Virus record (IMG/VR): IMGVR_UViG_3300037047_000312
Coordinates: 1 to 25,152 of that record
Direction: 5' to 3' (one strand)
Length of the DNA: 25,152 nucleotides
DNA from: a virus
Taxonomy: Duplodnaviria > Caudoviricetes
Below, in pieces: positions 1-24,773 of this stretch (position 1 is the first letter of the stretch; every line of letters starts with the position of its first letter). The position numbers and the translations under genes are program-made. Under the pieces are notes generated by a model. It ran no database searches and was not told where the DNA came from. It worked only from the letters and a program-made list of their open reading frames with translations.

Positions 1-603
1 GTGGTCACTTTTAGCGAACTCATTCACGACCTTCGGCGCGGATCGGGTCTTGGCCTTCGCGAGCTTTGTCGCCAGACCGAGAAGCCCGGCAGCCTGTCGC
101 TGCCGATCTCAATCGCTTACCTTTCGCGGATTGAGAATGGTGGCGTCCACAACGATCTGTCGAAGGTCACTATTGACAAGCTCTGGGCAATTGGCGTTGC
201 TCTGTCTGTCGATCCACTCCTCCTCTTTGTCCTCAAGGCCGACCTCCCGGCGAAGTATCTCAACCCTTCTGTCCGGCTGGCTCTCTTTTCCGTTTACGAT
301 GTTCCCAACATGCGCTTCGGCGAGTACGTCCGCAATCTACGGCATGCGCTCGATCTGTCGCTGTCGGAAGTATCGGAAGCGGCGAAGGTTGACCCGGCTC
401 ACTTCGGCATCTCTCCCGGCTATCTGTCGCAGGTCGAAACGGGGGGCGACGACCTCGTCGCCAAGGTGACCGGCGAACGTCTGTGGGCTTTGGGCTGCAT
501 CTATCGCGTTGACCCGCTGGCGCTCTTCTGTCTGTCTCGTGGAATGACGTCGCTGCTCGACTCCAAGACCCGCAACTCCTTGTTCGGTAAATTTTCGCTT
601 TGA
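1..603 (+). CDS. Tandem XRE/HTH transcriptional regulator (two duplicated domains); true start may lie upstream
   Basis: Two aligned halves: LRRGSGLGLRELC..ISIAYLSRIENGG..KVTIDKLWAIG..VDPLLLF and LRHALDLSLSEVS..ISPGYLSQVETGG..KVTGERLWALG..VDPLALF. Confidence 0.85.
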   Translation: MVTFSELIHDLRRGSGLGLRELCRQTEKPGSLSLPISIAYLSRIENGGVHNDLSKVTIDKLWAIGVALSVDPLLLFVLKADLPAKYLNPSVRLALFSVYDVPNMRFGEYVRNLRHALDLSLSEVSEAAKVDPAHFGISPGYLSQVETGGDDLVAKVTGERLWALGCIYRVDPLALFCLSRGMTSLLDSKTRNSLFGKFSL

Positions 604-898: not shown

Positions 899-916
899 GT
901 GTTCCCCATATCGAAA
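899..916 (+). repeat. Motif B copy GTGTTCCCCATATCGAAA
   Basis: Matches consensus GYGTTHCCTATAYCRAAR seen at 598, 2719, 6917, 20403, 24756. Confidence 0.65.
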
Positions 917-950
917 CCACCAGTTAACGTCGGTTTCTTTTCATGATTGA
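913..950 (+). promoter_or_regulatory. Motif A copy 1 (GAAACCACCAGTTA-N7-TTTCTTTTC), putative phage-specific promoter
   Basis: Near-identical copies at 2642, 7468, 10805, all at gene boundaries in the same orientation. Confidence 0.7.
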
Positions 951-986: not shown

Positions 987-1355
987 ATGCAGCAACCAGA
1001 GAAAGTGTCCCTTGCCACCCTACGCGGTGGCGCCGCCGTCGAGCAGTTTGATGCCGAATTGCTTCGCGTCCTTGAGAACGTCATCGATATCAATACCGAC
1101 GGGAAGACGCGCACCGTGACTCTTGCCGTCAAGATTACCCCGGACAAGAACCGCAGCTTCTGTGCCGTCGAGGTGTGTGTCTCTTCCAAGCTCCGCCCGA
1201 ACGAGTCCTTCGAGACGCAGATGTATCTCGGCGTGCAGAATGGTCTGCCGTTTGCGATGGAGCACAATCCGGAGCAAATGACGCTGGAGCTTAATTCGCA
1301 GGTGACGAGATCGTCACTCCCCGTTATTCAATTTCCTGTCTCCAAGGAGGGCTAA
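987..1355 (+). CDS. Conserved phage hypothetical protein
   Basis: GGAGG RBS before ATG 987; GGAAVEQFDAEL..VLENVIDINTD..RTVTL pattern recalled from phage early genes. Confidence 0.7.
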   Translation: MQQPEKVSLATLRGGAAVEQFDAELLRVLENVIDINTDGKTRTVTLAVKITPDKNRSFCAVEVCVSSKLRPNESFETQMYLGVQNGLPFAMEHNPEQMTLELNSQVTRSSLPVIQFPVSKEG

Positions 1356-2104: not shown

Positions 2105-2136
2105 GGAGCTGGTGTCGTTTGGCATCAGCTCCTTTT
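2105..2136 (+). terminator. Hairpin plus short T run just upstream of the ssb RBS
   Basis: GGAGCTGGTGTC-GTTT-GGCATCAGCTCC followed by TTTT. Confidence 0.55.
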
Positions 2137-2149
2137 CTGGAGGTGTTCT

Positions 2150-2608
2150 ATGTCGGTGAACAAAGCAATAATCGTGGGGCATCTTGGTAAGGATGCAGAG
2201 ATTCGTTATACCCCGTCCGGGGATGCTGTTTGCACGTTCAGCGTGGCGACGTCGGAGAAGTTCAAGGGCCGGGACGGGCAACCGCAGGAGAAGACCGAGT
2301 GGCACAACATCGTGACGTGGCGGAAACTGGCGGAGATTTGTGGCGAGCACTTGAAGAAGGGGGCACTGGTCTACCTTGAAGGCAAGATCACCAATCGTTC
2401 CTACGATGACCGCGATGGCAACAAACGCTACATCACGGAAATCGTCTGCGACCAGATGCGGATGCTCGACCGCAAGGGTGCCGGCGATCGCCCGGCTTCG
2501 GATCGGACCGCTCCGGCCTCTTCTGCTCCGGCGGGTGGGTACGAGGAGCCGCCGTTCAATGCGGACGATGAAATTCCTTTTAGCTCCGGTTCGGCTGCAG
2601 CTGATTAA
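2150..2608 (+). CDS. ssb: Single-stranded DNA-binding protein
   Basis: MSVNKAIIVGHLGKDAEIRYT..EKTEWHNIV..VYLEGKI; acidic DDEIPF tail. Confidence 0.97.
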   Translation: MSVNKAIIVGHLGKDAEIRYTPSGDAVCTFSVATSEKFKGRDGQPQEKTEWHNIVTWRKLAEICGEHLKKGALVYLEGKITNRSYDDRDGNKRYITEIVCDQMRMLDRKGAGDRPASDRTAPASSAPAGGYEEPPFNADDEIPFSSGSAAAD

Positions 2609-2641: not shown

Positions 2642-2679
2642 GAAACCACCAGTTACCGCCGGCTTCTTTTCCCTTGTGA
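2642..2679 (+). promoter_or_regulatory. Motif A copy 2
   Basis: GAAACCACCAGTTA-CCGCCGG-CTTCTTTTC. Confidence 0.7.
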
Positions 2680-2700
2680 AGCGGAACAGTTTTATCACTC

Positions 2701-2736
2701 TTGACAGGGAAAGGATTATTTTGGTATAGGGAACAC
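2701..2736 (+). promoter_or_regulatory. Candidate sigma70 promoter overlapped by a motif B copy (2719-2736, reverse strand)
   Basis: Perfect TTGACA 2701-2706; TG-n-TATAGG at 18-nt spacing (imperfect -10); reverse strand reads GTGTTCCCTATACCAAAA. Confidence 0.5.
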
Positions 2737-2745
2737 TGTAAATAA

Positions 2746-2853
2746 CGCTGTAGGGAGTCACGGCCCGAGACAGCGATAAGGTTTCGGGAGGTTTTCTTCC
2801 CGAAAAGCCCCGACTCTTCAGCGCCCGTGACCGCTGGAGGGTCGGGGTTTTTC
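2746..2853 (+). ncRNA. Structured leader RNA with three hairpins, complementary loops and a terminator (C4/CI-RNA-like attenuator, tentative)
   Basis: Hairpin 1 loop GTCACGG (2757-2763) is the reverse complement of CCGTGAC (2825-2831) in the loop of a 19-bp stem ending in a T run. Confidence 0.65.
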
Positions 2854-2894
2854 TATTATGGAGGTTTTTATGGCGTATTCAAAGGAGAGGGGGT

Positions 2895-3650
2895 GTGGCG
2901 ATGGCAAGAATTCGAACAATTAAGCCAGAAATGGCTCGACACGGCCTTCTCTTCGACCTTGAGAAAGAGACTGGTCTCCCTATCAGGTTTGCGTGGGCGA
3001 TACTGCCCACTGTCTGCTGCCGGGAAGGCCGTTTCAAATGGCGGCCTAGAGAATTGAAGTTGGAAGTCCTTCCCCATGACGAATTGGATTTTTCACGCGT
3101 GCTTGACGCGTTCTTGACGCGTGGCTTTGTCGTGAAGTACCGCGTCGATAACGAGTGGTATGGTGTTATCCCCACCTTCAAAAAACATCAGGTCATAAAT
3201 AACCGCGAACAGGAGAGTGGTCTCCCTGATATTTCCCTTGCAGACGAGGTAGTTAGTCACGCGTCGGGCACGCGTGCTTGTCGCGTGGATGACGCGGCTT
3301 GTGCAAGTCAAAGGGGAAGGGAAGAGGAAGGGAAGGGAAAAGGAAAGGAAGGGGAAGGAGTTAGTGTTCGTCGCTTCGCTCCTCCTTCGCCCGACGAGGT
3401 CAAGGCTTACTGTCTGGAGCGGAAGAATACCGTCGACGTCAATCGCTGGTTCTCTCACTACGAGTCGAACGGTTGGAAGGTCGGCAGAAATCCGATGAAG
3501 GATTGGCGTGCGGCCATTCGGACGTGGGAGGCTTCTTCTGTCCCCTCCGGATTTTCGGTCTCAGGGAAGGGCGGCAAGAAGGAAACTCCCTCGGAACGTC
3601 TGCAGCGGACGATCCATACCCAAGACGAGGCGGTGGTCCATGAATACTGA
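2895..3650 (+). CDS. Phage replication initiator protein (start GTG 2895 or ATG 2901)
   Basis: MARIRTIKPE N-terminus, GKGKGKE linker, C-terminal PPSPDEVKAYC..YESNGWKVGRNPMKDWRAAIRTW; directly upstream of a DnaC-like gene. Confidence 0.85.
   Translation: MAMARIRTIKPEMARHGLLFDLEKETGLPIRFAWAILPTVCCREGRFKWRPRELKLEVLPHDELDFSRVLDAFLTRGFVVKYRVDNEWYGVIPTFKKHQVINNREQESGLPDISLADEVVSHASGTRACRVDDAACASQRGREEEGKGKGKEGEGVSVRRFAPPSPDEVKAYCLERKNTVDVNRWFSHYESNGWKVGRNPMKDWRAAIRTWEASSVPSGFSVSGKGGKKETPSERLQRTIHTQDEAVVHEY
3094..3360. repeat. Iteron-like 11-bp-period ACGCGT arrays plus purine tract; candidate replication origin
   Basis: ACGCGT at 3095, 3106, 3117 and 3259, 3270, with variants at 3281 (TCGCGT) and 3292 (ACGCGG); A/G-only tract 3310-3360. 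Confidence 0.6.
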
Positions 3651-4428
3651 AATCTGTCCCAAGCATAACGAGGTGATGGTTATCCCGACCAAGGTCATCA
3701 TCGGTACTCTGATCGATGCGGCCTTTCTGAAACCCTATTGCCCGACCTGCGTTGCTGAGGCCAAGAAGCAACAGGACGTCGAGGAGCGCCAACAAGACAT
3801 CGACCGGCATGCGCAGCGTCGTCTCCTTGCCGAGGCCACGAAATACCGGCATCTACAGATCGGGCGCCGGTTTGAATCGGCGACCTTCGACGGCTTCATC
3901 GCCACCTCGCGGGAACAGCGGCTGGTCAAGGAAACCTGCCAGCGCTATGCCACCACCTTCCCGGATCGGTTGCGCGAGGGCGACAGCCTGATCCTTTCGG
4001 GGAATCCCGGTACCGGCAAGAATCATCTGGCAGCGGCGATTGCCAAGGCGGTCGTCGACCAAGGCCATGTCGTCGTCCATACCACCGCTTCCCGGTTGCT
4101 GCGGGAGATCAAGGAGACGTGGGGCGGGCGGGGCGATAAGACCGAGCGGGAAGTGATCGCCTCGTTTGTGAAGCCGGACCTTCTGATCATCGACGAGGTC
4201 GGCATGATGTTCGGGTCGACGGCGGAACAGATTCTGTTTATGGAAGTGATCAACTCCCGGTATGCCGATATGCGGCCTACCATCCTAATCTCGATGGACC
4301 AGATCGAAGACCTCGCGAAGTCGGTCGGGGCACAGATCATCGACCGCTTCTGTGAAGGAAAGTCGTCGATCTTGAAATTTACATGGAGCAGCCATCGCGT
4401 CACGGGGCGCTCGATCCATGCTGTTTAA
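3640..4428 (+). CDS. DnaC/IstB-like AAA+ helicase loader
   Basis: CPKH..CPTC N-terminal motif, Walker A GNPGTGKNH, Walker B LLIIDEVG; GAGG RBS before ATG 3640. Confidence 0.92.
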   Translation: MNTEICPKHNEVMVIPTKVIIGTLIDAAFLKPYCPTCVAEAKKQQDVEERQQDIDRHAQRRLLAEATKYRHLQIGRRFESATFDGFIATSREQRLVKETCQRYATTFPDRLREGDSLILSGNPGTGKNHLAAAIAKAVVDQGHVVVHTTASRLLREIKETWGGRGDKTEREVIASFVKPDLLIIDEVGMMFGSTAEQILFMEVINSRYADMRPTILISMDQIEDLAKSVGAQIIDRFCEGKSSILKFTWSSHRVTGRSIHAV

Positions 4429-6503: not shown

Positions 6504-6916
6504 CCATCGCCGATTCTTGTCGCCACTATGCTCCGATGGGGATGTCGATGTCGGCGACCGCTGCCGTCCTCGGCATCCCGGCGCACAAGTTCCGTCTGGC
6601 TGTGAAGGACGAAGGCTTGCGGCATCTGTTCGACGCCAGCCGTTATGCCCGCGACTGCCGTGGTGGTGGTCGTGGCTGGGTCAAGGGCCGGCTGCGTCCC
6701 TACCGTGTCCGTGTCCCTGCCCGCTTCATCCTGTCCGAGCTGCGCCGCTATCCTGATTTGACTCTGTTCCAGTCGATGGCCGATGTCGATATCGCCACCG
6801 TTCATCGCCGCTTTGGCTGCGCTTCGGCGGCTCACCGTTTCGCCCGTTTGACGTCCCCGTCCGATCCGATGTGGCATTTTGTTGCCGATGTCGCCGACGG
6901 CTGCCGTTTGCCTTGA
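6500..6916 (+). CDS. Hypothetical protein, possibly DNA-binding
   Basis: GGAGG RBS, ATGA overlap; GMSMSATAAVLGI HTH-like stretch. Confidence 0.65.
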   Translation: MTIADSCRHYAPMGMSMSATAAVLGIPAHKFRLAVKDEGLRHLFDASRYARDCRGGGRGWVKGRLRPYRVRVPARFILSELRRYPDLTLFQSMADVDIATVHRRFGCASAAHRFARLTSPSDPMWHFVADVADGCRLP

Positions 6917-6934
6917 GTGTTACCTATATCGAAA
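6917..6934 (+). repeat. Motif B copy GTGTTACCTATATCGAAA
   Basis: Fills the gap between the stop at 6916 and the next RBS. Confidence 0.65.
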
Positions 6935-7308: not shown

Positions 7309-7469
7309 AGTGGCCGGTCGGGAGATATAACGGCAGGCGCATTGTCGGGCTGGAGCTGGAGCTGAAGTTTCGCGTCAACGTGTGGTACTGGCGGCCTCGC
7401 TGGGTGCGCTATTCCAACCGAGTCGCGTGGCTCTGTTTCATCGTTGCGATCAATTGCGTCTACGACTGA
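7305..7469 (+). CDS. Small hypothetical protein (54 aa, MKWPVGRYNG..CVYD), not in ORF track
   Basis: GGAGG RBS, ATGA overlap with the previous stop, open frame to TGA 7467-7469. Confidence 0.65.
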   Translation: MKWPVGRYNGRRIVGLELELKFRVNVWYWRPRWVRYSNRVAWLCFIVAINCVYD

Positions 7470-7505
7470 AACCACCAGTTAAGCCCGGTTTCTTTTCATA
7501 CATGA
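7468..7505 (+). promoter_or_regulatory. Motif A copy 3
   Basis: GAAACCACCAGTTA-AGCCCGG-TTTCTTTTC; small hairpin GGGAC..GTCCC follows. Confidence 0.7.
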
Positions 7506-10448: not shown

Positions 10449-10806
10449 AATAAAAATGGACGCTAGCGCATTTAGAAAAGAACTTGTGAAAATAATGCCC
10501 GGCTATACGTGGACTGTTCACAAATCGAGTGCGCCGGAAACCTGCCAGACGGCCACAGGCATCCAGTCCAGCGGATCGAATCGACTCTCGACGGTTTTCG
10601 TGACTTGGCGGGATCACCCCACCACAATTCCGTGGTACGAGGTGAAAAGTTCTGGGTTTGGCACGAAATCTCCTTGGTTGGCGGAGCGTGGTGGCAAGAC
10701 TCTGGCGCAGGCGTTTCGTTCTTTGCAAAACTACTACGAAAACATGGCGCGTACCTACGCCGGTCATGCCAGAGACTTGCAGGGGGCGCGGACGGTGGCC
10801 TCATAA
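10441..10806 (+). CDS. Hypothetical protein between sbcD and sbcC
   Basis: GGAGG RBS, overlaps the sbcD stop; 121-aa open frame. Confidence 0.75.
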   Translation: MAKIKMDASAFRKELVKIMPGYTWTVHKSSAPETCQTATGIQSSGSNRLSTVFVTWRDHPTTIPWYEVKSSGFGTKSPWLAERGGKTLAQAFRSLQNYYENMARTYAGHARDLQGARTVAS

Positions 10807-10842
10807 CCACCAGTTACCCTCTCCCTTTCTTTTCCTATGTAA
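10805..10842 (+). promoter_or_regulatory. Motif A copy 4 (9-nt spacer)
   Basis: AACCACCAGTTA-CCCTCTCCC-TTTCTTTTC; hairpin GGGCGG-TCCG-CCGCCC follows. Confidence 0.65.
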
Positions 10843-11268: not shown

Positions 11269-13676
11269 TTTTGCATTCGCTCACTCTTAAAAACTTCAAG
11301 GGGCTTCTGGCCGGCGTCGGTCTGGCCGAGGTCACCATCGACTTCGACAAACTACCAAACGGCCTCATTGCCGTCGTCGGCAGTAACGGCATGGGAAAAA
11401 CTACTTTGCTTGATAATTTTCATCCATTCAGATTAATGCCGTACAAGCTCCGCAAGGCTGCCGGCTGGTCCCCGGCGGCGTTCAGCTACTACGACGAATG
11501 CGTCGGCGAGGCCAAGAAGGAGCTGATCTTCTCCGTCGGCGATGTCCGCTACAAGTCAGTGCTGCTGATCGACGCCGATCGCCGGAAGCAGGAGGCGACT
11601 CTGTATCATCTCGGCGACGAGGCGATGTATGGCGGTGCGGCTCGCTCTGGCCTTCACTGGATTCCCCTCAACGACGGAAAAGTAAAAACTTACGATGAAT
11701 CCGTCGAGAAGGTCTGCGGCTCCCCTTCCCTCTTCTTTACCTCTGTCTTCCGGGCGCAGGGGGCTCGCAACCTCTCCGACTATACGCGGGGCGATATCAT
11801 GTCCGTCGTCGCCGAGCTGCTCAACATCGACCATATCAAGGAGCAGGGAGAGAAGGCCCGCAAGGTCGCGGCGGCTCTCAACCTGCAAGTCGATACTCTG
11901 CAGCGCGATCGATCGGCCCTTGCCGGCGATGACCTCCCTGCTCTGCGCGACGAGTTGAGTCGTGTCGTTGCCGAGGCCGATACATCATCCTCCCATATCG
12001 CCGCCTATCGCCATGACCTGACGACCATCGAGGCTAACCGGCGGGAGCTGGAGATTGCCAGCGCCGCCGAGGCGTCGACCCGGCAGCGGATCGCCGACAA
12101 GCAAATCCTCCTGCAGCGCCTGCGGGCAGAGTTGGCGGCTGGTCATCTGCTGGGGCAGCGGGATTCGCTCGTTGCTGATCTGGCGACTGTCACCAACTCC
12201 CGGTCTCCTCTGCTGCTCCGTCACTCAGCAGACATTGACCGGTTGACGACGAAGTGCGCCGAGACCAAGAAGATTCTGGAGCGCGAGCCGGCCATCCGCA
12301 GCGCCGTGACGGATCTCCCTTTGCGGCAGGCGGCGCTGGACGAGTCCCGTGTTGCTGTGCAGGCCGTCCGGGATCGGTATGCCTCGGTCCGGGAGCAGGC
12401 GGCAGTCTTGTCATCGCTGCCGGGCGAAATCGCCAACCACGAGCGACAGCTTGCCTCGCTCCAGCTCCGCACGTCGGCTCTGGCTGGTCTGGATTGCAAC
12501 GGCGGTGGTTCCGGGTGGATTAACGAGTCGTGTCCTCTCCTGCGCGATGCTGTGGCGGCACAGAGCGAGATTGCACCGACGCAGGCAGCGATTGCCGGAT
12601 GCAAAGATCGCTTGTCTGCGAAGGTGGGCTTGGACGAGAAGTTGGCGGCGCTGAAAGCCTCCGGCGAGAAGTTGGCAGCAGAGGTTGCTACTGGCGAGGG
12701 TGGCGTGCGGGAGACGCAGGCGCTGGCGAACCTCCTCCCGCAACTGGAAGGTGCGATCGTTCAGTGCTCCGGCCTTGAAGATGAGATCGTTCGGCTCAGG
12801 TCGGATCATGCTGTGGCGCTAGCGGATATTGACGGGCGCATGGCTGATCTCCGCTCCCGCATCGAGCAGGTTAATGCCGATATCGATACGTTCCGTGGCG
12901 CGAAGGCGCAGGAGGTCGCTGCTGCGGAGGAAGAGATTCGGCGGCTGTCGGCGTCTGTTGGTGACGGTCTGGCCTCGGAGTTGTCCGGCCTCGACCAGAA
13001 AGCAGCGGAGGTACGGTCTGTGATCGAGCGGGCCGAGGCTGGTCTCCGTTTGAAGCAGGAGGAGTCCGGTCGGCTGCGGGCTCGTATTGAGTCGGCAGAA
13101 GCTGCTGCGGCGAAGGTGGAGGAGATCGACGGCAAGGTGGCGGCTCTGAACGAGGAGATCGCCAACTGGAACCTGCTGGTGAAAGCCTGCGGCAATGATG
13201 GTGTGGTGGCTCTGGAGATTGATGATGCCGGGCCGTCGATTGCTGCGATCTGTAATGATTTACTGCGGACCTGCTATGGCCCTCGATTCTCGATCCGGCT
13301 GGAGACACAGTCAATGAAGGTCGATGGCGGTGCCAAGGAGGATTTCGATATCACCGTGTTCGACTCTGAGACCGGCGAGCAGAAGTCTATCACCTCTATG
13401 TCCGGCGGGCAGTGTACTTGGATCGAGGACGCGCTGACTCGCTCCATCTGTCTTTACAACATCGACCGCTCGTCGCGGGTGTTCGGCACTCTGTATTCGG
13501 ATGAAAAGGACGGCGCTCTGGACCCGGCGAAGAAGGTCGAGTTCATGGCGGTGAAGCGGCAGTCGATGGAGGTCGGGAGTCACACGCGGGAACTGTTTAT
13601 TACTCAGGCTGCCGATCTGGTCGATATGGCCGACGGCGTTATCCGGCTGCTGCCGGGGGAAGTGAGGGTGTCATGA
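11265..13676 (+). CDS. sbcC: SbcC/Rad50-like SMC ATPase
   Basis: Walker A GSNGMGKTT, FRAQG Q-loop, long coiled coil, MSGGQ signature, SDEKDGALD Walker B/D-loop. Confidence 0.92.
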   Translation: MILHSLTLKNFKGLLAGVGLAEVTIDFDKLPNGLIAVVGSNGMGKTTLLDNFHPFRLMPYKLRKAAGWSPAAFSYYDECVGEAKKELIFSVGDVRYKSVLLIDADRRKQEATLYHLGDEAMYGGAARSGLHWIPLNDGKVKTYDESVEKVCGSPSLFFTSVFRAQGARNLSDYTRGDIMSVVAELLNIDHIKEQGEKARKVAAALNLQVDTLQRDRSALAGDDLPALRDELSRVVAEADTSSSHIAAYRHDLTTIEANRRELEIASAAEASTRQRIADKQILLQRLRAELAAGHLLGQRDSLVADLATVTNSRSPLLLRHSADIDRLTTKCAETKKILEREPAIRSAVTDLPLRQAALDESRVAVQAVRDRYASVREQAAVLSSLPGEIANHERQLASLQLRTSALAGLDCNGGGSGWINESCPLLRDAVAAQSEIAPTQAAIAGCKDRLSAKVGLDEKLAALKASGEKLAAEVATGEGGVRETQALANLLPQLEGAIVQCSGLEDEIVRLRSDHAVALADIDGRMADLRSRIEQVNADIDTFRGAKAQEVAAAEEEIRRLSASVGDGLASELSGLDQKAAEVRSVIERAEAGLRLKQEESGRLRARIESAEAAAAKVEEIDGKVAALNEEIANWNLLVKACGNDGVVALEIDDAGPSIAAICNDLLRTCYGPRFSIRLETQSMKVDGGAKEDFDITVFDSETGEQKSITSMSGGQCTWIEDALTRSICLYNIDRSSRVFGTLYSDEKDGALDPAKKVEFMAVKRQSMEVGSHTRELFITQAADLVDMADGVIRLLPGEVRVS

Positions 13677-19949: not shown

Positions 19950-20411
19950 TTACGAGACGAATCCCGGTTTATAGACGGTCTTGCCGTTCTCTTTCACGGC
20001 GGATAAATTCTGCTTGCGCGGGGCGGTTCCTTCAGGCGACAGGCTGACGTGACACCAGCCTGCGGACGGATCGTCCTTGGAGCCGAACTCGAAGATGATT
20101 TTGTCGTACTCCGTCAGTTCCTTTGCGAGCTTCTGGCAGACGGCGAGGTTGCTCATACCGGCCTTCTCGCAGTCCAAGGCGAGGCAGAGGCAGTGCGCCG
20201 AGGTCTTGCTGCCACCGACGGCTTTGTTGAGCGCCGGGGAGCGGTAGCCGGAGGTCAGGGTGATGTCGCCGCCGAGGATCGTCTGGATGCGCTCGGCCAG
20301 CGCCAGCAGCCGTGGCAGGTTCTTGCGGTGCTCAGGCGCGATGGCGTTGTCGATGCCGCGTCTGGTGGCGGTCATGCTTTTGGTGATGTCGGCTTCCGTT
20401 ATTTTCGGCAT
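19950..20411 (-). CDS. Endolysin, peptidase M15 family
   Basis: TSGYRSPALNKAVGGSKTSAH..ALD..WCHVS zinc motifs; GGAG RBS before ATG 20411. Confidence 0.92.
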   Translation of the reverse strand: MPKITEADITKSMTATRRGIDNAIAPEHRKNLPRLLALAERIQTILGGDITLTSGYRSPALNKAVGGSKTSAHCLCLALDCEKAGMSNLAVCQKLAKELTEYDKIIFEFGSKDDPSAGWCHVSLSPEGTAPRKQNLSAVKENGKTVYKPGFVS

Positions 20412-20433
20412 AGGGAACACTCCGGGCGCAGGT

Positions 20434-24736: not shown

Positions 24737-24773
24737 GCCGGTATCTTAACCTCTCGCGTTTCCTATATCAAAG
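24737..24773 (-). promoter_or_regulatory. Sigma70-like promoter (likely leaderless) overlapping motif B
   Basis: Minus strand: TTGATA, 17 nt, TAAGAT, 6 nt, ATG of baseplate J; 17 bp identical to 598-614. Confidence 0.6.

What the first reader, a model, noticed from the sequence alone, without database searches (positions are those of the whole stretch)
2746..2853. Three-hairpin RNA with complementary loops gating the replication genes
Seen: hairpin 1 (CGCTGT..GGG-AGTCACGG-CCC..ACAGCG), hairpin 2 (TTTCGGGAGG-TTTT-CTTCCCGAAA) and a 19-bp stem with several G-U pairs ending in a T run whose loop CCCGTGAC pairs over 7 nt with the hairpin 1 loop. The G-U pairs favour + strand RNA structure. Known: P1 C4, P4 CI and N15 CA RNAs use exposed loops to pair with short targets and control termination. 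Inference: a kissing-loop attenuator or immunity RNA controlling initiator/loader expression, fed by motif A and a motif-B-covered promoter.
Basis: partly seen in the sequence, partly recalled or inferred. Interest (0 to 1): 0.8.

Follow-up and report, generated by a model that had tools for sequence, protein, structure and literature searches.

The report
Kissing-loop terminator gating phage replication genes
Just ahead of its DNA-replication genes this uncultured phage encodes a predicted ~115-base RNA whose first hairpin loop matches, letter for letter, the loop of its own stop-signal hairpin; other phages keep the match with different letters, so it is likely a self-contained RNA switch of an apparently undescribed design that limits replication-gene expression.

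Summary
Three hairpins (2746-2852) fold far better than shuffles, prefer the + strand, and lie between an operator-covered sigma-70-like promoter and the replication initiator plus DnaC-like loader of a probably temperate phage. No Rfam family matches.

The loop 1/loop 3 pairing is conserved, not chance. The one close homolog swaps a C-G pair to G-C. Six more phage leaders keep the design with four other codes, each matching only its own partner. Chance is about 0.7% per strong hairpin. Seven of the eight leaders precede replication modules.

This pairing is not significant in the distant relatives.

Best model (inferred, about 45%): loop 1 is the control point. Its pairings within the nascent RNA hold the long terminator open. 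Released terminated RNA caps loop 1 of new transcripts with its loop 3 and restores termination.

Expression, cis versus trans, and direction of effect are untested. It is not C4, CI or a classical antisense system. Motif A is not required.

The parts
1..603 (+). Tandem-HTH XRE-type regulator, candidate binder of motif B (inferred); an integrase lies beside it in the close relative G003
   Evidence: Pfam HTH_31/HTH_3, phrog_8; 83% identical in L088; integrase phrog_1
2150..2608 (+). Single-stranded DNA-binding protein, last gene before the leader
   Evidence: PF00436, phrog_44
2642..2685 (+). Motif A, a repeated sequence element upstream of the promoter; not part of the RNA and not required in relatives
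   Evidence: 4 copies in the window, 8 in G003; no consensus fold, -0.38 kcal/mol; 0 copies in G824 and G825
2701..2730 (+). Sigma-70-like promoter TTGACA-18-(TG)-TATAGG; predicted start about 2737
   Evidence: Sequence; identical hexamers in L088; function not tested
2723..2736 (-). Motif B, a non-palindromic operator-like site covering -10/+1
   Evidence: 5 loose matches in the window and 19 in G003, several overlapping sigma-70-like promoters as read by eye
2746..2775 (+). Hairpin 1 with an interior loop 3 bp below the apex; loop 1 = 2756-2763; its 5' strand is also the antiterminator strand
   Evidence: compensatory T2751C with A2770G in run X2 record 11
2782..2805 (+). Hairpin 2 (10 bp), core on which the antiterminator zipper stacks; absent in L072
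2807..2852 (+). Hairpin 3: long intrinsic-terminator-like stem (17-22 bp), loop 3 = 2824-2831, T5 tail
   Evidence: 4 of 17 pairs changed on both sides in L088 and all 17 kept
2757..2831 (+). Kissing helix, 7 bp: 2757-2763 with 2825-2831
   Evidence: 7 of 7 pairs kept in L088, one changed on both sides; cross-pairing matrix
2746..2823 (+). Predicted transient antiterminator: 2746-50 with 2819-23, 2753-59 with 2812-18, 2762-64 with 2807-09
   Evidence: -33.2 versus -29.1 kcal/mol before the 3' arm exists; 3 of 200 arm shuffles as good
2855..2882 (-). Antisense promoter-like site TTGAAT-16-CATAAT; not conserved, probably incidental
   Evidence: absent in L088
2860..2923 (+). GGAGG plus a 17-codon ORF (2870-2923) overlapping the rep start; peptide not conserved
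   Evidence: Sequence; different peptide in L088; rep follows the RBS directly in X2 record 11
2901..3650 (+). Replication initiation protein
   Evidence: phrog_16167, E 3.5e-33
3640..4428 (+). DnaC/IstB-like helicase loader
   Evidence: phrog_50, PF01695

Best explanation
This is a conserved three-hairpin leader with a terminator-type third hairpin whose loop is complementary to loop 1, and it likely works as a self-antisense transcription attenuator that limits expression of the replication initiator and loader. SHOWN by sequence and comparison: promoter-like site, H1-H2-H3 fold, 7-bp loop 1/loop 3 complementarity kept with different codes, position ahead of replication genes. PREDICTED by folding: before the terminator's 3' arm exists, H1's 5' strand can zip onto the terminator's 5' arm, entering through loop 1. 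INFERRED: (1) On a lone nascent RNA, loop 1 pairs in cis, either with the 5' arm (this lineage) or with loop 3 as it emerges. The kiss would close a ring that the polymerase-tethered 3' arm cannot wind about two turns through, so the long terminator is late and rep is read. (2) Transcripts that do terminate release a stable ~115-nt RNA with loop 3 exposed. (3) That RNA caps loop 1 of later nascent transcripts before their own 5' arm or loop 3 is made, removing both cis escapes, so they terminate. The result would be code-specific negative feedback on initiator synthesis after the promoter is derepressed, with pT181 logic but the antisense loop built into the terminator.
For: Fold and strand bias. 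Compensatory swap in the kiss, and the same position co-varies with the antiterminator and terminator pairs. Four distant leaders were picked by a covariance model that holds no pseudoknot (R1) and all four showed a 6-bp cognate kiss. Two more lie before Rep homologs (L011, L072). Cognate pairing is 6-7 bp and non-cognate 4 or less, except L223/L224a, which share a code; the two copies in G825 have different codes. Seven of 8 leaders head replication modules with different initiators. The antiterminator is favoured transiently in the window (-4.1 kcal/mol; 3 of 200 shuffles) and L088 (-6.0; 5 of 200). Partial variants fit it: C2764T with G2807A (X2 record 11), and G2757A with a T at the 2814-equivalent (X3 record 12) (paired by hand). 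H1 has the sub-apical interior loop that functional kissing regulators need (PMC4878617 passages). In L072 a cis kiss cannot reach a fully zipped terminator in my rough geometry (43 A reach versus 77 A or more), so there it must act on nascent RNA or in trans. IsrK shows that a terminated prophage RNA can act in trans on its own read-through (PMC4825925 section 21).
Against: No expression, termination or binding data. The zipper antiterminator is not better than shuffles in L223, L224a, L224b or L220 (32 to 200 of 200), and with two sequences its own covariation is not significant (128 of 500). The finished terminator fold is far more stable (-62 versus -33 kcal/mol), so antitermination must be kinetic. 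Rough geometry allows a cis kiss in the finished RNA in 5 of 8 leaders and is marginal here (80 A reach versus 69-95 A), which could hide loop 3 from trans action. The L220 hairpin has no T-run (GTAGTTGT). One G825 copy precedes a DNA methyltransferase, not rep. Covariation cannot tell cis from trans or the sign of the effect. The topological block is my inference, with no precedent found.
Confidence: 0.45

Rival explanations
1. Cis-only switch: the kiss forms within one molecule, locks H1 and the terminator apex (or delays the terminator), and sets a fixed or protein-tuned leak into rep. The released RNA is a by-product.
For: Covariation is equally expected in cis. Rough geometry permits a cis kiss in L223, L224a, L224b, L220 and L011 and is marginal in the window. 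pLS20's zipper attenuator works in cis and stabilising its first hairpin favours termination (PMC13401043 sections 25 and 28).
Against: Codes diversify, and two copies in one genome are orthogonal, which cis action does not require, though drift could give it. The L072 geometry forbids a cis kiss on the finished hairpin.
Confidence: 0.27
2. Stand-alone small RNA plus insulator: the ~115-nt RNA has its own function, with the kiss as a tertiary or dimer contact or a protein-binding fold. Its terminator shields rep from upstream read-through, and rep is reached by a separate antitermination system.
For: Own promoter and a very strong terminator. The upstream regulator-to-ssb genes run in the same direction and need insulation. 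Long stems resist processive antitermination (PMC10325885 abstract). One copy precedes a methyltransferase.
Against: Almost no primary sequence is conserved across the family (2 invariant columns); H2 can be missing (L072); the position directly before a ribosome site or start codon is kept; no conserved trans target was found; a P-AT-resistant stem would argue for a local switch.
Confidence: 0.18
3. Classical countertranscript control: an antisense RNA from the minus-strand promoter-like site (2882-2855) binds the leader as in pT181/pIP501.
For: TTGAAT-16-CATAAT, 9 of 12 matches, would start near 2848; H1 holds an antiterminator strand as in pT181.
Against: The site is absent in L088, and no relative scores above 8. 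The scan finds 7 such sites against 5.2 expected by chance. A fully complementary antisense RNA would not need loop 3 to match loop 1. G-U pairs favour the + strand.
Confidence: 0.07
4. Ordinary terminator with a chance loop match.
For: GC-rich 6-7-mers are common; 1 of 3 hits (L024) and L045 look incidental.
Against: Compensatory swap, six codes in eight leaders, null rate 0.7%, 0 of 71 controls.
Confidence: 0.03

Closest known systems
pT181/pIP501 antisense-driven transcription attenuators (PMC4878617, passages)
   Same: Leader of a replication-initiator gene. The 5' hairpin holds the antiterminator, which sequesters the terminator's 5' arm. A kissing interaction at that hairpin's loop is the control point, and the upper stem has an interior loop.
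   Different: No conserved opposite-strand RNA. The partner loop is the terminator's own loop on the same strand and pairs over only 6-7 nt. It occurs in phages.
Zipper-type attenuator cATT of plasmid pLS20 (PMC13401043: abstract, sections 23, 25 and 28 read)
   Same: Three segments: weak first hairpin, middle stem, terminator. The antiterminator extends the middle stem. The trigger is unknown there, and the authors suggest negative feedback by stabilising the first hairpin.
   Different: There the 3' stem of SL-2 pairs with the terminator, the two folds are near-equal in energy, and antitermination is the measured default. The main text has 0 hits for kissing, loop-loop, pseudoknot or in trans. 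It controls conjugation genes. Here the conserved feature is the loop-loop match, and the zipper is lineage-limited.
Satellite phage P4 CI RNA with seqA/seqC (as summarised in PMC4825925 section 21)
   Same: A same-strand RNA derived from the leader pairs with its own nascent leader and causes premature termination ahead of replication genes.
   Different: CI is a processed internal RNA with targets on both sides and maintains lysogeny. Here effector and target would be two loops of one primary terminated RNA, with an intrinsic terminator and an operator-covered promoter. No Rfam similarity.
P1/P7 C4 RNA and Rfam C4 (RF01695), c4-a1b1, c4-2
   Same: Short exposed loops are used as a phage-specific pairing code (recalled; RF01695 seen in the PMC2864571 table).
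   Different: No covariance-model hit. C4 acts on icd-ant translation (recalled), not on a terminator before rep.
Gifsy-1 IsrK (PMC4825925 section 21)
   Same: A terminated short prophage RNA acts in trans on the read-through form of its own transcript.
   Different: IsrK activates translation of the long mRNA. The model here is promotion of termination by a loop-loop contact.
ColIb-P9/IncB repZ pseudoknot versus Inc RNA (titles only, in the reference list of PMC10724649)
   Same: A cis pairing and a trans RNA compete for the same loop to control an initiator.
   Different: That system controls translation and uses a true antisense RNA and a leader peptide (recalled). Here the RBS lies outside the hairpins and the short ORF is not conserved.

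Membership tests
Rfam C4 / c4-a1b1 / c4-2 or any Rfam family | Covariance-model match | tested here: not met
   0 hits at E<=5 in the window; only 4 chance eukaryotic hits far below gathering at E<=10 locally; 0 at gathering in G003; none over the leaders of L223, L224, L220, L011, L072
P4 CI immunity | Same-strand, leader-derived RNA complementary to its own leader ahead of replication genes | tested here: met
   Loop 3 matches loop 1 on the + strand ahead of rep and loader; pairing in trans is inferred
P4 CI immunity | Processed internal RNA with targets both upstream and downstream (seqA, seqC) | tested here: not met
   No downstream partner near the leader: next GTCACGG at 4399, next CCGTGAC at 12304; processing not testable
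P4 CI immunity | Expressed in the lysogen and confers immunity | not testable with these tools
   No host or RNA data; an operator-like motif covers the promoter
pT181/pIP501 attenuator | 5' hairpin contains an antiterminator that sequesters the terminator's 5' arm | tested here: met
   In silico for the window and L088 (3 of 200 and 5 of 200 shuffles); not for 4 of 4 distant leaders tested
pT181/pIP501 attenuator | Fully complementary countertranscript from its own conserved promoter | tested here: not met
   Promoter-like site in the window only; absent in L088, none above 8 in 7 other leaders
pLS20 zipper-type attenuator | Weak first hairpin, middle stem and terminator, with the antiterminator extending the middle stem | tested here: met
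   Transient fold stacks on H2 in the window and L088; H2 is absent in L072
pLS20 zipper-type attenuator | Terminator and antiterminator folds of similar stability, antitermination by default | tested here: not met
   -62 versus -33 kcal/mol in silico; the default state itself needs an experiment
ColIb-P9/IncB rep pseudoknot | Translational control: RBS sequestered and a conserved leader peptide (recalled) | tested here: not met
   GGAGG at 2860 lies outside H3; the short ORF differs in L088 and is absent in X2 record 11. L072 is an exception: its likely SD lies in the 3' arm

The most novel reading that the evidence does not exclude
A widespread, undescribed class of self-antisense attenuators in phages: the terminated leader is its own regulator, using a 6-7-nt code in the terminator loop to cap the first hairpin of new transcripts, while the same kiss in cis blocks a two-turn terminator topologically. 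The codes diversify like plasmid incompatibility groups and would give phage-specific feedback on replication initiators, and exclusion of phages that share a code, with no separate antisense gene or protein.
Probability: 0.35. Interest if true: 0.88.

Novelty: new variant of a known kind. Interest (0 to 1): 0.72.

Why it matters
If the model holds, phages control replication initiators with a one-piece RNA circuit that merges sensor, terminator and antisense effector. It would be a new way to regulate intrinsic termination (through the terminator loop) and a possible RNA incompatibility code between co-infecting phages. It offers a testable answer to what can trigger zipper-type attenuators, which the pLS20 paper leaves open. 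Engineering orthogonal pT181 attenuators has been hard (PMC4878617), and the natural codes found here are mostly orthogonal on paper. Because almost no primary sequence is conserved, standard motif searches would miss the class. Even under the cis-only rival it is a real, unannotated RNA element.

Tried and rejected
Homolog searches that found nothing new:
- BLAST of 2600-2950 against phages and plasmids gave only short chance matches.
- The exact two-loop pattern in viral contigs gave 7 loci, none with the fold.
- Motif A in genome contigs gave 6 chance loci.
- The promoter pattern gave 31 metagenome and 18 viral loci, of which only the L088 contig was real.
- The leader was in 0 of 401 genomes of the class of G001. 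The regulator was in 0 of 233 (order) and 0 of 401 (phylum). G001 came from a chance hit and the host is unidentified.
- Model R1 found nothing in 80 Rep-homolog loci or in 43 of 56 loci of the neighbour gene, and its genome-mode filter missed the distant copies.

Other dead ends:
- No RNA holder listed among sequencing runs.
- A trans target in the gene at 957-1355: CCGTGAC at 1114 becomes CCGTCAC in L088, matching the loop swap. It ranks only 46 of 1430 and 264 of 2262 sites, 3 of 19 comparable G-ending codons change to C anyway, and L220 and L224 lack it. Rejected as probably chance.
- Motif A as a structured RNA: no consensus fold.
- The short ORF as a leader peptide: not conserved.
- My first descriptor scan flagged only the G003 copy among 32 hairpins and missed the window's own; I did not trace why. 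The second missed the G824 copy, probably because of its bulged apex.
- L024 reads like coding sequence and is not counted; L045 was not followed up.
- MAFFT could not align the distant leaders, so no family-wide pair count was made.
- No protein-complex or structure job was run; the question is RNA-RNA.

Full report
1. Observation. H1 spans 2746-2775 with loop AGTCACGG, H2 spans 2782-2805, and H3 has a 17-bp core (2807-2848, three G-U pairs, up to 22 bp with the flanking A and T runs), loop CCCGTGAC and a T5 tail. The + strand folds at -62.1 kcal/mol (z -6.5; 0 of 200 shuffles) and the - strand at -47.7 (z -4.0). GTCACGG and CCGTGAC pair over 7 bp (about -11 kcal/mol as a duplex), and both loops are predicted to be open. 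Rfam gives no hit at E<=5 in the window and only four chance eukaryotic hits locally at E<=10.

2. Context. The element lies in a phage early region: tandem-HTH regulator, DUF968/HNH, two phrog_997/1029 genes, SSB, the leader, replication initiator (phrog_16167) and DnaC-like loader. The closest relative, G003 (L088), is a complete 89.9-kb record with an integrase beside the regulator, so the group is probably temperate. The host is unknown. A sigma-70-like promoter (TTGACA-18-TG-TATAGG, 2701-2730) would start near 2737 and give a ~115-nt terminated RNA; the scanner did not list it because the -10 lacks its last T. Motif B covers its -10/+1 and recurs over other promoter-like sites, which suggests an operator. 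Motif A sits upstream of the -35, has 8 copies in G003 and no consensus fold.

3. Covariation in close relatives. L088 carries the same leader at 81% identity, ahead of a different initiator and a DnaB-like helicase. Of 43 pairs in the H1-H2-H3-plus-kiss structure, 96.5% of cells pair and 6 pairs change on both sides; 14 of 500 shuffles reach this, and slid controls pair at 44-55%. All 7 kissing pairs are kept, and one swaps C-G to G-C. Two partial variants from other runs fit as well (paired by hand). X2 record 11 has T2751C with A2770G in H1 and keeps 6 complementary loop bases despite three small deletions. X3 record 12 has G2757A, but its loop 3 is not visible.

4. Distant relatives. An alignment of regulator homologs fetched four more records (L220 and L221 are near-identical). 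Model R1, which contains no pseudoknot, hit L224:6739-6854 (E 6e-7), L224:2192-2321 (1.5e-4), L223:11958-12090 (0.02) and L220/L221:14371-14474 (0.023). Its other hits, a repeat region inside the L220 rep gene and matches at E>1, were not examined for a kiss. All four intergenic hits have a first-hairpin loop complementary to the last-hairpin loop: TGTCGG/CCGACA, TGGCAG/CTGCCA (twice) and ATGCCG/CGGCAT. A scan of the five related records found 5 kissing hits among 127 strong hairpins, all of them these leaders (the G824 copy was missed by the filter). The swapped-pair null is 693 of 95,790 (0.7%). In 136 other loci 2 of 183 hit. Upstream of 80 Rep homologs, 3 of 30 terminator-like hairpins had a kiss of 6 bp or more versus 0 of 71 controls. 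L011 and L072 have promoter-leader-terminator layouts; L024 reads like coding sequence and is dropped. Across the 8 leaders, cognate loops pair over 6-7 bp and non-cognate over 4 or less, except L223 and L224a, which share a code. Seven of 8 precede replication modules with different initiators, two of them with one unassigned gene in between; the eighth precedes a DNA methyltransferase. G824 and G825 lack motif A and use another operator-like repeat over the leader promoters. L220 lacks a T-run and a clear sigma-70 promoter. L072 lacks H2.

5. In stepwise folding, once the terminator's 5' arm exists but not its 3' arm, H1 is predicted to open and its 5' strand to pair with that arm (15 bp, stacked on H2): -33.2 versus -29.1 kcal/mol in the window, and -34.0 versus about -28 to -30 in L088. 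Against shuffled arms this is unusual in both (3 and 5 of 200), but not when loop 3 is included in the shuffle (21 and 71 of 200), and not in four distant leaders. Its two-sequence covariation is not significant on its own (128 of 500), although X2 (C2764T with G2807A) and X3 (G2757A with T at the 2814-equivalent) fit it. Loop 1 is the entry point for this zipper and also the partner of loop 3, so the two pairings exclude each other. The finished terminator fold is far more stable, so any antitermination is kinetic.

6. Mechanism. The conserved core is a first hairpin whose loop matches the loop of a long (14-22 bp) terminator. I infer that loop 1 is the switch. On a lone nascent transcript it pairs in cis, with the 5' arm in this lineage or with loop 3 as it emerges. 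A cis kiss closes the 5' arm into a ring, and a 3' arm still held by polymerase cannot wind about two turns through that ring, so the terminator would be late and rep would be read. Terminated RNA accumulates with loop 3 exposed and can cap loop 1 of later transcripts some 50 nt before their own arm or loop is made, restoring termination. Rough geometry with hand-entered stem lengths forbids a cis kiss on the finished RNA in L072, is marginal here and in L088, and allows it in five leaders, so it does not settle the matter. The operator over the promoter suggests the circuit acts after derepression and not as the lysogen's immunity RNA. I give this model 0.45, a cis-only switch 0.27, a stand-alone sRNA with an insulating terminator 0.18, a countertranscript 0.07 (its promoter-like site at 2882-2855 is not conserved) and chance 0.03. 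A possible trans target at 1114 was tested and is chance-level.

7. Comparison. It works most like pT181 attenuation, where a kiss at the 5' hairpin sequesters the antiterminator (PMC4878617, passages), but has no conserved antisense gene. Its three-part layout resembles the pLS20 zipper attenuator (PMC13401043: abstract and sections 23, 25, 28), whose main text never mentions kissing, loop-loop, pseudoknot or in trans. Its same-strand logic resembles P4 CI and Gifsy-1 IsrK (PMC4825925 section 21). ColIb-P9 was seen only as reference titles, and long-stem resistance to antitermination only as an abstract (PMC10325885). C4 details are recalled. It fails a defining test for each of these families.

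8. Novelty. Nine full-text searches and passages of three motif catalogues (PMC5737381, PMC10690425, PMC2864571) showed no description of a terminator loop kissing an upstream leader loop before phage initiators. The library lacks most subscription papers. The supplement of PMC5737381 was unreadable, and three of the files of PMC10690425 were not searched; that paper lists unannotated candidates before replication genes, so the design could be among them. Unchecked notes from this scan describe similar leaders in other phages; they are leads, and my conclusions rest on my own calls. Verdict: a real, conserved RNA element; a new variant of RNA-controlled attenuation, with about a one-in-three chance of being a distinct self-antisense class. 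Interest 0.72.

Noticed in passing
window 913-944, 2642-2685, 7468-7499, 10803-10840; 8 copies in G003 (3303, 6836, 11621, 14924, 35779, 37462, 43793, 84708): Motif A, about 45 nt, always on the + strand ahead of genes; several copies continue into two small hairpins and an RBS. No consensus fold in its core. Could be a phage-specific promoter or a protein or antitermination site. Its reverse complement contains ACTGGTGG, one base from E. coli Chi (recalled).
   Followed up: partly
window 899-912, 2723-2736, 6917-6930, 20407-20420, 24756-24769; 19 loose matches in G003: Motif B, a non-palindromic operator-like site overlapping -35 or -10/+1 of many sigma-70-like promoters in either orientation; a candidate regulon of the tandem-HTH protein at 1-603.
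   Followed up: partly
L223:11899-11940; L224:2101-2142 and 6678-6700: G824 and G825 use a different repeated operator-like word (TGTAGCGTATGG-type; 4 and 8 matches), as an inverted pair over the promoters of their replication leaders.
   Followed up: partly
L224:6739-6854: A second copy of the kissing leader, with a different code, in front of a DNA methyltransferase in the same genome as the replication copy.
   Followed up: partly
L072:2914-3001: Two-hairpin minimal version: no middle hairpin, 22-bp terminator ending at the rep start codon, with the likely SD inside the 3' arm.
   Followed up: partly
window 1114-1121 / L088:3756-3762: A synonymous Val codon change mirrors the loop-code swap; chance-level on testing.
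   Followed up: yes
window 2105-2132: 12-bp terminator-like hairpin before ssb, identical in L088 although the ssb genes differ.
   Followed up: no
window 3094-3121, 3258-3296, 3305-3371: CACGCG-type repeats and a purine-rich run inside the initiator gene, as expected for an iteron-type origin; L220:14729-14834 and L088:5640-5920 have their own repeats at the same place.
   Followed up: no
window 2901-4428 versus L088, L223, L224, L220: The initiator and loader/helicase module is swapped among relatives (DnaC-like versus DnaB-like partners) while the leader stays.
   Followed up: partly
L220:12062-12364: Small acidic ORF resembling an acyl carrier protein (by eye) in a phage early region.
   Followed up: no
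L223:9762-9843: tRNA gene directly upstream of the regulator.
   Followed up: no
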